A stretch of 64,000 nucleotides of DNA from Escherichia coli (lineage in GTDB: Bacteria > Pseudomonadota > Gammaproteobacteria > Enterobacterales > Enterobacteriaceae). The DNA lies in NCBI RefSeq assembly GCF_017348835.2, contig NZ_CP071375.1. One strand, written 5' to 3'. A program made the position numbers. Positions 39,001 to 42,000 of this stretch are shown piece by piece. Numbering within the stretch: the stretch's first letter is position 1; each line of letters opens with the position of its first letter.

Positions 39001-42000
39001 TGCCGCCTCGTTTGCTCGCTCTCGCGCAGGTCGTGAAGCACTGATTACCGTATTGAGCAAAGCGAAAGAAGGGATTGAAGGCAAAACAGGAACGGTGATT
39101 TGTCAGTAATTTAAAGGCCGGGTGGGTAATACCATCCGGCCAAAGATTGTCAAGTAAGTGCGCTTTGTTGATGCCGGATGCGGCGCGAGCGCCTTATCCG
39201 TCCTACAAAACATCGCAAATTCAATAGATTGCAATGCACTTGTAGGCCTGATAAGCGTAGCGCATCAGGCAATTTGGCGTTTGTCATCAGTCTCAGGCCG
39301 GGTGAGTAATACCATCCGGCCATTTTCATTTAAGCCACTTCCAGCACTTCTTTTGTCGCTTTCACGCCCTGATGCATCAACATCATTAACGCCTCAAGTA
39401 CGCCGCCGCCAATCGCCCGGGCTTTATCAGAAACGCTGGTGAAATCAGCGGTTTCACCACGAGGATCGATATCACCAATTTTAAAACCACCAACCACTGC
39501 CAAGCCGTCGTTCAACAAGCCACGCACCATCCCCGTCAACGGTGCTTTAATTTCATGCTCACCAATCCAGGCAATCACATCGCCCTCTTTCACCAGATCG
39601 CCTAATTTCACGTTGGATCGCATAATGCCTGCAGCAGGAGCACGGATCACCCGTCGGGTGGTATGCCCCATAATATTGCCAGGAACACCGGTATTCTCCT
39701 GCGCACAACCAGAGTAAATCACCTGACCGAGCCAGTGCCCGCGATTTGTTTCAATTACCGCATGACAATCCTTCCCAGCAGTAAAGCCCGGCCCAAGCGC
39801 GATTGTTACTGGTGCCATATCTGCCCGCGTTCCCAAATTCTGTTTCGCCAGAATAGCGTCCACCACGCAAAGCGGTTTCAGTTCATCAAGCAATGAACAG
39901 GCGGGATCTACCATCACAGGGATGAATCCGCGTTCGGTAAGTTTCATCGCTTCCGCAGAGCTGGTTGCCAGGCGAGCAGTGACGCCTTCGACCGTCATTT
40001 CGCCATCGAACACGGCCTGGGCAAACGCCACGGTACAACGAATCACTGTCGGTTTTTCCACTTCCAGCATGATCACTTTAAAACCCGCATGATACAGACG
40101 TAGCGCCACACCACTGGCGATATCTCCCGCACCGCGAATCACCACCAGCTGGTGTCCGGAAGGATGAGAAGGTTTCATCATCAGCCCACCCGGCGCGTTA
40201 TTTTTCACCTGTAATATTTCTGCCAGCACGCTGATGGCGATCTCCTGCGGCGTTTCCGCACCTATGTTGTAACCAACGGGCGCATGTAAACGGGCAATAT
40301 GTTCTTCAGCCACGCCTTTCTCACGCAATTGACGCAGGAAAAGCTGAACCTTGCGACGACTTGCCAGCAACCCCAGCCATGCAATGGGCTGTTCAATGAG
40401 TTTGTCGAGGGCTTCACGATCCTGATTATTCGTGGCAATCAGGACAAAATTATCAGGGCGAATATCCAGTGCTTCCACTGCCGCACCAAACGACTCAGCA
40501 TGGAGAAGCGTGGTTGATGGTGGGAATAGTTCAGGATTGAGGCTTTCGCGATAAATATCGGCAACGGCAATATCAAATCCTAATAGCGCCGCACTCTGGG
40601 CTATCGCCCGGTTGACATGCCCCGCGCCAATCAACACCAGACGTGGACGCATACCATGGACGCTGATAAATACTGACATTGCACCTCCACAATCTGACCC
40701 GACAGCATCCGCACCGTTACGAGCCATACGTCCATGGAATAATCGCGGCTTACGTTCCTGCAATGCCTGAAGCGACTCTTCAATCACCTTCCGCTCAACC
40801 ATTCCGCCACCAATTGTACCGACGATAGAACCATCAGCGCGCACTAACATTTGTGCAGAATGGCGGGGAGTCGAGCCTCGGCTATCAACAATTTGCGCCA
40901 TCGCAAACGGACAATTTTGCTCTTCGAGTTTTGCAGCCTCTGTGAAAATATTCATACCAACCTCAATGGATATCCTTTCAGTAACCCGGAATACCCGGGC
41001 CGCTAATTCACAAATCTGCGCGCGATTGCAGGATGTTCTTGTATATCGCCCAGCCAGATTGCCTCTACGTCATGTTGTTGCAGCGGTTGAAGGAGCTCGC
41101 TTTGTGCAATCGCATTCTCACATTGAGAAAAACGGTTAATGAACCAGACTCGCCGACAACCTTGCGGTACTTTTTTAAACGCCCCCTGAGGGTGGCGAAC
41201 CAGCGCAACGAGATCGCTCAGTTGCAAGGTTGCATCAGGTGTTAACCCGGTAATATCAGCAAACTGCGACCAGCGATGGACATTTTCTGTGCTCACTTTC
41301 GCGCCCAAAGTATGTCCTCCCATCACAGCAATCACGCAGCAACTGCTTTTGGGTATGCAAGGTTCGTGCTCATCAGGCGCTTTTAACGGCATTCCACGCG
41401 AGCCATCTGCTTCAATGAGAATTACGTCACACTCTGGTCGTTGCACCAGTGCATCAATCGCTTCTGGCGTAAATCCCTGCACTTTTCCCTGGTTCGCTTT
41501 CCAGCTGTGAAAACAAAATGAAATGGGGGATGTAAGAGACGCATGAGGAAGCATGGCGGGATCACGACAGAAAACCACGGGCCAGTGAGACGTTGGCATA
41601 AACATATGTGTCGTCGTCGTGATTAACACACGCCTGCCGCTAGCCTGGAGCAGTTCTGCCAGCCAAAAAAGCAAGCTGGTTTTCCCCCCTGCACCAACAA
41701 CAGAAATCACAGTGGGACGTTTCTGCGCACCTAAATCAATGAATAATGCCGATGGGTCAACTATACTTTTCACGAGTCTTTATGACCTCTCTGGGATAAA
41801 TTATCCCCAACTTAATGCATCAGGATGTAACGCAATTATCAGGCGTTATTAGCCCCTATAAATAATGGAACCACTATGTCAGCCATCGACTGTATAATTA
41901 CCGCTGCCGGATTATCATCAAGAATGGGGCAATGGAAAATGATGTTACCCTGGCAACAGGGAACAATTCTTGATACAAGTATCAAAAATGCGTTGCAGTT

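What the first reader, a model, noticed from the sequence alone, without database searches (positions are those of the whole stretch)
39110..39329. Duplicated palindromic unit plus REP-like elements between yqeA and yqeB
A ~26-nt palindromic unit GGCCGGGTG(G/A)GTAATACCATCCGGCC occurs twice (about 39119-39144 and 39298-39323), bracketing two REP-like GC-rich palindromes. This is BIME-like architecture between convergent genes, and could act as a transcript stabiliser or terminator.
Basis: seen in the sequence. Interest (0 to 1): 0.3.

Follow-up and report, generated by a model that had tools for sequence, protein, structure and literature searches.

The report
Duplicated terminator hairpin flanking a BIME-1
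Between the convergent genes yqeA and yqeB sits an ordinary, already catalogued small mobile repeat (a BIME-1), bracketed by two copies of the genes' own terminator hairpin. The same bracketing is found at about half of the other BIME-1 loci examined, which suggests these repeats insert at terminator hairpins and duplicate them.

Summary
A 28-nt direct repeat (39115-39142 and 39295-39322, one mismatch), each copy a 9-10-bp GC hairpin, brackets a 152-nt BIME-1: flank motif, Y REP, linker with an IHF-like site, Z1 REP, flank motif.

The hairpin is not a dispersed repeat. E. coli genomes carry it once or twice, only at this locus. It is the terminator hairpin of yqeA/yqeB.

Of 5426 E. coli genomes, 1648 carry the filled allele. 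Most others are exactly 180 nt shorter: one hairpin, no BIME. E. whittamii carries the orthologous insertion, so the insertion is old and the E. coli empty alleles are precise deletions between the repeats.

The bracketing is general. 15 of 30 independent BIME-1 loci have abutting 16-30-nt hairpin duplications, against 0 of 870 cross-locus controls; a second sample gave 7 of 12. One lineage-specific insertion (yfbV/yfbU) has a perfect 22-nt duplication. One hairpin (ymdF/rutG) carries BIME-1 in both orientations, probably from two separate insertions, with the duplication starting at the same base.

Best reading: BIME-1 integrates at terminator hairpins through cuts at both feet of the stem, duplicating the hairpin. 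The enzyme is inferred, not shown. The element is known; I did not find this footprint in the literature I could read.

The parts
38177..39109 (+). yqeA (carbamate-kinase-like, annotated arcC/yqeA), upstream convergent gene; stop codon TAA at 39107-39109
   Evidence: ORF list; RefSeq annotation of identical or near-identical loci
39115..39142 (.). Left copy of the duplicated 28-nt terminator palindrome (hairpin 39116-39141, 10-bp stem, loop GTAATA). It is followed by AAAGATTG, so it has no T-tract on the + strand. On the - strand it is followed by TTTAAATT.
   Evidence: not reported by the terminator scan
39143..39171 (+). Left terminal motif of the BIME-1 (AAGATTGTCAAGTAAGTGCGCTTTGTTGA; family consensus TCAGATTGTTGACAAAGTGCGCTTTGTTCA). 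It is an imperfect inverted repeat of the right terminal motif.
39172..39206 (-). REP / palindromic unit, Y type. On the - strand it reads GTAGGACGGATAAGGCGCTCGCGCCGCATCCGGCA, starting with GTAG. It is slightly decayed relative to the consensus.
   Evidence: aligned with about 100 other copies
39207..39241 (.). L linker of the BIME-1 with an IHF-like core ATTCAATAGATTG at 39219-39231 (12/13 match to WATCAANNNNTTR). The segment AATGCACTT is private to this locus.
   Evidence: sequence; linker comparison; sub-threshold Rfam ES036 match at 39207-39249
39242..39271 (+). REP / palindromic unit, Z1 type (GTAGGCCTGATAAGCGTAGCGCATCAGGCA)
39272..39294 (+). Right terminal motif of the BIME-1 (ATTTGGCGTTTGTCATCAGTCTC)
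39295..39322 (.). Right copy of the duplicated 28-nt terminator palindrome (hairpin 39296-39321; G>A at 39305 next to the loop)
39323..39329 (+). T-rich tail (TTTTCAT) that makes copy 2 a terminator-like site for yqeA. It ends at the yqeB stop codon.
   Evidence: the same tail follows the single hairpin in empty alleles
39330..40955 (-). yqeB (XdhC/CoxI family), downstream convergent gene

Best explanation
The region is a BIME-1: a REP doublet with a central IHF-type linker and conserved inverted terminal motifs, a non-autonomous REPIN-type element. It integrated at the single terminator hairpin shared by convergent yqeA and yqeB and duplicated that 28-bp palindrome. The order is now hairpin, BIME-1, hairpin plus T-tract.

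Shown here:
(i) BIME-free alleles carry exactly one hairpin.
(ii) The same architecture, with different locus-specific hairpins, flanks about half of independent BIME-1 copies.
(iii) The duplication runs from 0-2 nt outside one foot of the stem to 0-2 nt outside the other, whatever the hairpin size (16-30 nt).
(iv) A lineage-specific insertion carries a perfect duplication.
(v) One hairpin carries BIME-1 in both orientations with the same duplication start.
(vi) At yqeA/yqeB the insertion predates the E. coli / E. whittamii split, and about two thirds of E. coli genomes have lost it by precise deletion between the two repeats.

Inferred mechanism: the target is recognised as a hairpin or cruciform and each strand is cut at the 3' foot of its hairpin. 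The element is joined in, and gap filling copies the palindrome on both sides. The outcome resembles repeat duplication during CRISPR spacer integration. The REP-associated Y1 transposase TnpA_REP (RAYT) is the obvious candidate enzyme. The central IHF bend could bring the two ends together. Neither point is shown.

Consequence for expression (inferred): each gene still meets a hairpin right after its stop codon, but the proximal copy has lost its U-tract. Transcripts that end at an intrinsic terminator should therefore run through the BIME-1 to the distal copy, gaining a 180-nt structured 3' UTR that contains REPs.
For: Anatomy and significance.
The unit is locus-specific, 1 or 2 copies per genome.
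Filled versus empty alleles: 1648 of 5426 genomes are filled and the rest are exactly 180 nt shorter with one hairpin.
Same polymorphism elsewhere: pitA/uspB (1939 filled) and ccmH/narP (1504 filled), each empty allele being one hairpin plus T-tract.
Census: 15 of 30 independent loci have abutting flank repeats scoring >=14, against 0 of 870 cross-locus pairs. All of these flanks are stable hairpins. A second sample from metagenomes gave 7 of 12 loci scoring >=12, against 1 of 132 controls.
Polarity: the yfbV/yfbU insertion in Escherichia sp. MOD1-EC7003 has a perfect 22-nt duplication, while 0 of 5426 E. coli genomes are filled and E. coli has the single terminator.
Both orientations at one hairpin: ymdF/rutG carries a forward and a reverse BIME-1, both duplications starting at |CACCGCCGG. 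The two elements are no more alike (85.6%) than unrelated copies (median 85.7%).
Age and loss at this locus: the E. whittamii copy shares the private linker segment AATGCAC[C/T]T, found in none of about 100 other copies, with flanks 9-10% diverged. Empty alleles are nested among filled haplotypes, for example strain 214-4 with 1 difference in 880 flank nt.
Terminator status: only copy 2 passes the scan in the filled allele, and the single hairpin passes in the empty allele.
Enzymology from the literature: TnpA_REP acts only on single-stranded DNA, needs GTAG and the stem mismatch, and cuts at C|T dinucleotides even far from the REP (PMC3333891).
Against: About 40-50% of full-length BIME-1 copies show no flanking duplication (for example L029/L053/L057, L019, L008, L012=L172; L046 is hairpin | BIME | T-tract). 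Duplication is therefore not obligatory, or one copy is often lost.
IS200/IS605-type Y1 transposases, the relatives of RAYT, make no target duplications (PMC2817692, PMC3333891). A RAYT-made duplication would be a departure from them.
No integration event has been observed directly; everything rests on comparative sequence.
At yqeA/yqeB itself the empty alleles are derived, so polarity comes from other loci.
The ymdF/rutG pair could in principle be an in-place inversion through the palindromic repeats (argues against this but does not exclude it).
The two hairpin copies differ mostly in their loops (32/139 central versus 8/278 outer columns), which a simple fill-in does not predict.
No RNA 3'-end data exist here for this locus.
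Confidence: 0.8

Rival explanations
1. The 26-nt palindrome is a member of a dispersed repeat family or an outer motif of the BIME itself.
For: It abuts the BIME on both sides. BIMEs are known to contain non-REP motifs.
Against: It occurs at most twice per genome across 5166 E. coli genomes, and every copy examined lies in the yqeA-yqeB spacer. It remains as a single copy when the BIME is absent. Other BIME-1 copies are flanked by entirely different hairpins.
Confidence: 0.02
2. The second hairpin arose independently of the BIME, by a local tandem duplication or by selection for a separate terminator for each convergent gene, and the BIME later landed between the two copies.
For: Convergent genes can have separate terminators. 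Each gene here has a hairpin right after its stop codon.
Against: No allele with two hairpins and no BIME was seen among the alleles inspected. The empty class is exactly 180 nt shorter. The same arrangement recurs at 15 of 30 and 7 of 12 independent loci, with the repeat always abutting the element ends. The lineage-specific insertion has a perfect duplication while all 5426 E. coli genomes keep one hairpin.
Confidence: 0.04
3. At yqeA/yqeB the empty allele is ancestral in E. coli, and the filled allele is a recent gain in the K-12-like (A/B1) lineages.
For: Only 30% of genomes are filled. O157:H7, ST95, ATCC 25922 and PCN033 are empty.
Against: E. whittamii has the same insertion with the private linker segment and 9-10% diverged flanks. 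The filled alleles are themselves diverse (USMARC-49610). Empty alleles sit inside filled haplotypes. Inter-species recombination bringing in the filled allele is not excluded.
Confidence: 0.1
4. The hairpin duplication is made by host replication or repair rather than by transposase cuts. One route is breakage of the extruded palindrome into two ends that each keep the palindrome, followed by templated insertion of a BIME-1. Another is template switching at a stalled fork.
For: Palindromes are known break and slippage sites (general knowledge). The differences between the two copies cluster at the hairpin tip, as expected from hairpin processing or copying across a folded template. About half of the copies lack duplications.
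Against: The inserted DNA is always a complete BIME-1 with the same conserved ends (TC)AGATTG...GTCTC. Reproducible element ends point to site-specific cleavage of the element. The duplication boundaries are reproducible at one hairpin.
Confidence: 0.2

Closest known systems
BIME-1 (also called RIP or RIB): a Y REP, the L linker with an IHF site, and a Z1 REP (Gilson/Bachellier/Hofnung; Boccard & Prentki 1993; Oppenheim et al. 1993; summarised in PMC3333891 and PMC1187871)
   Same: Two inverted REPs of Y and Z1 type, a roughly 35-nt L linker with an IHF-like core, conserved outer motifs, about 150 nt, single copy, extragenic at the 3' ends of genes, and present or absent among E. coli isolates.
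   Different: Nothing in the element itself differs. The flanking duplication of the host terminator hairpin is not part of any description I could read.
REPIN / RAYT (TnpA_REP) system (Nunvar 2010 PMC2817692; Bertels & Rainey 2011 PMC3116915; Ton-Hoang 2012 PMC3333891)
   Same: A REP doublet that can fold into one long hairpin, with GTAG 5' of each REP. It is thought to be mobilised in trans by a single-copy Y1 transposase. Copies are old and turn over slowly.
   Different: The published models describe single-strand excision and integration without target duplication and name no target. Here the target is a terminator hairpin, and the whole hairpin is duplicated at about half of the loci.
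IS200/IS605 family single-strand transposition
   Same: A hairpin-recognising HUH/Y1 enzyme related to RAYT, with cleavage next to hairpins.
   Different: These elements insert 3' of a short specific sequence on one strand and make no target duplication.
MITEs mobilised by DDE transposases
   Same: Short, non-coding, with terminal inverted repeats, flanked by direct repeats of target DNA, and present or absent between strains.
   Different: DDE elements give a duplication of fixed short length (2-10 bp). Here the length follows the size of the target hairpin (16-30 bp).
CRISPR repeat duplication at spacer integration by Cas1-Cas2 with IHF (E. coli type I-E; from my own knowledge, not read here) and casposon integration (PMC5137440, seen only as a search listing)
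   Same: Staggered attack at the two borders of a roughly 28-bp partly palindromic sequence, followed by gap filling that duplicates it. IHF is involved. Repeated events would give arrays of alternating short palindromes and inserts, as seen in MOD1-EC7003.
   Different: This is an analogy of outcome only. There is no evidence that Cas1 acts here, the insert is 150 bp rather than 33 bp, and the targets are many unrelated hairpins.
Intrinsic terminators shared by convergent genes
   Same: A GC-rich palindrome with A-rich and T-rich flanks, a few nucleotides after both stop codons.
   Different: In the filled allele the flanks are split between the two copies, so neither proximal hairpin has its U-tract.

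Membership tests
BIME-1 / RIP / RIB | Two REPs (palindromic units) in inverted orientation, one Y type and one Z1 type | tested here: met
   39172-39206 (Y, read on the - strand) and 39242-39271 (Z1). They align along their whole length with BIME-1 copies from other loci.
BIME-1 / RIP / RIB | Long L linker carrying an IHF binding site | tested here: inconclusive
   A 35-nt linker with ATTCAATAGATTG, a 12/13 match to WATCAANNNNTTR, homologous to the linkers of about 100 other copies. IHF binding itself cannot be tested with these tools.
BIME-1 / RIP / RIB | Conserved outer motifs, total length about 145-150 nt, single unit | tested here: met
   Both outer motifs match family patterns. The element is 152 nt.
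BIME-1 / RIP / RIB | [quoted passage not shown] | tested here: met
   It lies between two stop codons. 1648 of 5426 genomes are filled and the rest are precisely empty.
REPIN mobilised by RAYT (TnpA_REP) | GTAG 5' of each REP and an imperfect stem, as required for TnpA_REP binding (PMC3333891) | tested here: met
   GTAG at 39242-39245 (+) and at 39206-39203 (-). Both stems are imperfect.
REPIN mobilised by RAYT (TnpA_REP) | A cognate RAYT gene in the same genome, and mobilisation by it | not tested
   No RAYT gene was looked for in the window (in K-12 it lies elsewhere, between yafL and fhiA; PMC3333891). Mobilisation is not testable with these tools.
Dispersed palindromic repeat family (for the 26-nt unit) | Copies at several unrelated loci per genome | tested here: not met
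   At most 2 places per genome across 5166 genomes; every copy examined lies in the yqeA-yqeB spacer. There are 2 matches in the window with up to 3 mismatches.
Intrinsic (Rho-independent) terminator | GC-rich stem-loop directly followed by a U-tract | tested here: met
   Met for copy 2 on the + strand and for the single hairpin of empty alleles. Not met for copy 1 on the + strand or copy 2 on the - strand, whose tails are BIME sequence. Copy 1 on the - strand has the tail UUUAAAUU but a stem with an A.C mismatch.
Intrinsic (Rho-independent) terminator | RNA 3' ends at the hairpin in vivo | not testable with these tools
   Neither yqeA nor yqeB appears in the held supplement text of an E. coli 3'-end map.
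DDE-type MITE | Target duplication of fixed short length | tested here: not met
   The duplications are 16-30 nt and follow hairpin size.
Rfam ES036 (CssrF) sRNA | Score at or above the family gathering threshold | tested here: not met
   36.3 bits against a threshold of 37.6, at 39207-39249, which is the BIME-1 linker.

The most novel reading that the evidence does not exclude
BIME-1 elements (REPINs of Escherichia) have a specific integration target and footprint that the literature I could read does not describe. They enter at hairpins, most of which are terminator-like, in either orientation. Cuts fall at both feet of the stem, so the whole hairpin (16-30 bp) is duplicated. This is a structure-measured target duplication, formally like CRISPR repeat duplication. 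It also supplies the direct repeats for later precise excision and for growth into hairpin/BIME arrays.
Probability: 0.4. Interest if true: 0.7.

Novelty: already known. Interest (0 to 1): 0.4.

Why it matters
For this locus the answer is ordinary. It is a catalogued type of repeat in the 3' region of two poorly expressed genes, and its presence or absence is a common E. coli polymorphism.

The wider point is that how REP/BIME elements insert is still described as unknown. [quoted passage not shown] The recurrent whole-hairpin duplication gives a concrete and testable footprint: a defined target (hairpins, mostly terminator-like), defined cut positions (the feet of the stem on both strands) and no orientation preference. 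It also explains why BIME-1 sits at the 3' ends of transcription units, why it is lost so cleanly, and how an insertion can rewire termination and 3' UTR structure for two convergent genes at once.

Tried and rejected
Rfam search of the region: only sub-threshold hits (ES036 on the linker, naRNA4 on a REP), with no independent RNA family.

None describes hairpin duplications flanking BIME-1. The older primary papers could not be opened (Bachellier 1997, Gilson 1991, Boccard & Prentki 1993), so prior description cannot be excluded.

MG1655 record: this copy lists no REP feature at the locus.

3'-end data: no entry for yqeA or yqeB.

Idea that duplication requires a hairpin able to form on both strands: L046 fits, because its hairpin needs two G-T pairs and has no duplication. 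L012, L021 and L036, however, have Watson-Crick left hairpins without duplication. Inconclusive, so dropped.

Idea that one copy is the reverse complement of the other, as expected for hairpin-capped ends: rejected, because the loops are in the same orientation in both copies.

Idea that the ymdF/rutG forward and reverse copies are one insertion inverted in place: not supported by similarity, but not excluded.

Relating the conserved TC...TCTC ends to the C|T specificity of TnpA_REP: suggestive only, not resolved (PMC3333891).
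Full report
**1. What is in the sequence**

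The window around the finding reads: yqeA stop codon (39107-39109), TTTAA, then a 28-nt palindromic segment AGGCCGGGTGGGTAATACCATCCGGCCA (39115-39142). A 152-nt block follows (39143-39294), then the same 28 nt with one change, G>A at 39305 (39295-39322). After that come TTTTCAT and the stop codon of the convergent gene yqeB (39330).

The 26-nt core occurs exactly twice in the 64 kb and never in shuffled sequence.

Each copy is a strong hairpin. As RNA on the + strand, copy 1 folds at -22.6 kcal/mol and copy 2 at -18.2 kcal/mol. On the - strand they are weaker (-16.7 and -14.2 kcal/mol), because a G.U pair becomes an A.C mismatch.

**2. The block between the copies is a BIME-1**

The block contains, in order:
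- a left terminal motif;
- a Y-type REP (39172-39206, GTAG-first on the - strand);
- a 35-nt linker with ATTCAATAGATTG, a 12/13 match to the IHF consensus WATCAANNNNTTR;
- a Z1-type REP (39242-39271);
- a right terminal motif.

Patterns taken from the two outer motifs each hit the window once. The right-end pattern also found 78 copies in 55 loci from nine Escherichia and Pseudocitrobacter genomes. All have the ends (TC)AGATTGTTGACAAAGTGCGC ... GCGTTTGTCATCAGTCTC.

This is the composition given for BIME-1 in PMC3333891 and PMC1187871. From my own knowledge, the same element is called RIP or RIB in the IHF literature.

The whole 236-nt region folds far better than shuffles on both strands (z -7.1 and -6.1), as expected for a REP doublet.

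Rfam gives only sub-threshold hits, on the linker (ES036, 36.3 bits against a threshold of 37.6) and on a REP.

**3. The palindromic unit is not a repeat family**

A 30-nt query containing the unit matched 5166 of 5426 complete E. coli genomes at 6813 places, with one or two places per genome and never more. Every copy I examined lies in the yqeA-yqeB spacer. The excess of 1647 places over genomes matches the number of genomes that carry the long allele.

**4. Filled and empty alleles**

A 521-nt query across the spacer is covered in full in 1648 genomes. Most others match in two pieces that lie 341 nt apart in total, which is exactly 180 nt shorter.

The short alleles read stop codon, one hairpin, TTTTCATTT. 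O157:H7, ST95, PCN033, 214-4, SCEC020001 and H8 are examples.

So the difference between the alleles is one BIME-1 plus one copy of the hairpin. In the empty allele the single hairpin with its T-rich tail passes a simple terminator scan. In the filled allele only the distal copy (39296-39321) does, because copy 1 is now followed by BIME sequence.

**5. The same architecture at other loci**

Two weaker hits of the first search led to BIME-1 copies between pitA and uspB and between ccmH and narP. Each is flanked on both sides by a hairpin, but by a different, locus-specific one.

Both loci are polymorphic in E. coli, with 1939 and 1504 filled genomes. Their empty alleles again have exactly one hairpin followed by a T-tract.

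I then compared the 40 nt on either side of 30 independent full-length BIME-1 copies.
- 15 have an abutting direct repeat scoring at least 14. None of 870 left-right pairs taken from different loci reached that score.
- The repeats are 16-30 nt, start 0-1 nt after the element and end 0-4 nt before it.
- All are stable hairpins, even without G-T pairs.
- Three or four more loci have recognisable but diverged pairs.

A second, independent sample from metagenome contigs used a left-end pattern. It gave 100 full-length copies falling into 12 loci. Seven of the 12 had repeats scoring at least 12, against 1 of 132 controls.

**6. Polarity and independence**

*yfbV/yfbU.* Escherichia sp. MOD1-EC7003 has a BIME-1 flanked by a perfect 22-nt duplication, AGAAGGCATAGATAAGCCTTCT. 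None of the 5426 E. coli genomes is filled there, and E. coli has one terminator at that spot. This is a derived insertion that created the duplication.

*ymdF/rutG.* The same hairpin carries a BIME-1 in one orientation in a few genomes (L015) and in the opposite orientation in about 1700 genomes (L074). The rest are empty. Both duplications begin at the same base. The two elements are 85.6% identical, which equals the median between unrelated copies (85.7%), and each has closer relatives elsewhere. Two separate insertions are therefore the likelier reading. Because each hairpin is a palindrome, the flanking copies are also inverted repeats of each other, so an in-place inversion cannot be fully excluded.

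**7. History of the yqeA/yqeB copy**

E. whittamii has a BIME-1 at the same place. It shares the linker segment AATGCAC[C/T]T, which none of about 100 other copies has. Its flanks differ from E. coli at 9-10% of positions, and the shared part of the element at a similar level (by eye).

That copy has lost its left motif and Y REP through a deletion between two ATCCGGCC strings. Its left hairpin has a different loop.

The insertion therefore predates the split of the two species, unless it crossed between them by recombination.

Within E. coli, empty alleles are nested among filled haplotypes. Strain 214-4 differs from the window at 1 of 880 flank positions, whereas another filled strain differs at 6. 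The empty alleles here are best read as repeated precise deletions between the two 28-nt repeats. [quoted passage not shown] 1997).

**8. Mechanism**

*Shown.* Many targets are hairpins with A-rich and T-rich flanks, that is, terminator-like. The duplicated segment is the whole hairpin. Its boundaries sit just outside the stem on both sides. The element can lie in either orientation, and its ends are constant.

*Inferred.* A cut at the 3' foot of the hairpin on each strand would leave the palindrome as an overhang on both target ends. Joining a BIME-1 between them and filling the gaps gives hairpin, BIME, hairpin.

TnpA_REP is the natural candidate enzyme. It acts on single-stranded DNA, is guided by REP structure, and cuts at C|T dinucleotides at a distance from the REP (PMC3333891). 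Many stems here end in C followed by T. However, its IS200/IS605 relatives make no duplications (PMC2817692), and no experiment links it to this footprint.

The IHF site lies midway between the ends, so an IHF bend could bring them together. This is inference only.

The outcome resembles repeat duplication at CRISPR spacer integration, a point I make from my own knowledge. This is an analogy, not a claim of shared machinery.

**9. Expected effect on expression**

In the filled allele each proximal hairpin lacks its U-tract. Intrinsic termination should therefore occur mainly at the distal copy. That adds about 180 nt of REP-containing structure to both 3' UTRs and makes the convergent transcripts overlap.

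This was not tested. A published E. coli 3'-end data set has no entry for either gene in the text held here.

**10. What does not fit**

- Nearly half of the copies have no duplication.
- The two copies of a duplicated hairpin differ mostly at the loop: 32 of 139 central columns against 8 of 278 outer columns over 18 loci. The ends of each repeat were defined by similarity, which inflates the contrast. Even so, single hairpins in empty alleles keep their loops across phylogroups. Selection on stems, template switching within quasi-palindromes, and error-prone copying of a folded template are all possible causes.

**11. Novelty**

The element and its copy at this locus are known. In ten literature searches and the key papers on REP/BIME mobility, I found no description of terminator-hairpin duplications flanking BIME-1. 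Recent texts still call the insertion mechanism unknown (PMC3333891; 10.64898/2026.03.23.713779).

The 1990s primary papers could not be opened. I therefore rate the finding as already known. The footprint is reported separately as the most novel reading, at moderate probability.

Noticed in passing
L034/L035, L041, L042-L044, L052, L055 (Escherichia sp. MOD1-EC7003): Tandem arrays of [short hairpin + BIME-1] with periods of 168-182 nt and seven or more units at one locus (L034+L035; L055). Some arrays are bounded by the native terminator hairpin at both ends but have other hairpins between the inner units. Those same hairpins recur in arrays on other contigs. One BIME-1 subfamily appears to have expanded sharply in this genome.
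   Followed up: partly
window 39207-39249: The Rfam sRNA family ES036 (CssrF) matches the BIME-1 L linker just under its gathering score (36.3 against 37.6). The family may simply describe a BIME-1 linker.
   Followed up: no
L064 3100-3320 (E. whittamii yqeA/yqeB spacer): The orthologous BIME-1 has lost its left motif and Y REP through a deletion between ATCCGGCC in hairpin copy 1 and ATCCGGCC in the REP. The loop of the left hairpin is TCGACA instead of GTAATA.
   Followed up: yes
18 loci, e.g. L003 1478-1500 vs 1651-1676; L004 1461-1487 vs 1639-1664: The differences between the two copies of a duplicated hairpin cluster in the loop and innermost stem (32/139 central versus 8/278 outer alignment columns). 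They include a clean 4-nt loop deletion and a compensatory C-G to T-A change.
   Followed up: partly
L015 1560-1830 vs L074 150-440 (ymdF/rutG): The same terminator hairpin carries a BIME-1 in opposite orientations in different E. coli lineages. Because the flanking hairpins are palindromes, they are also inverted repeats of each other and could in principle invert the element in place.
   Followed up: partly
L069 (USMARC-49610), L068 (H8), L179 (metagenome): Allelic variants of the yqeA/yqeB hairpins: copy 2 reads GGGGGGG in one filled strain, an empty allele has an extra A in the loop, and two metagenome copies have both hairpins identical.
   Followed up: no
L046 (Escherichia sp. MOD1-EC7003): A BIME-1 lies exactly between a terminator stem and its T-tract with no duplication. 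That stem needs two G-T pairs, so it can form on one strand only.
   Followed up: partly
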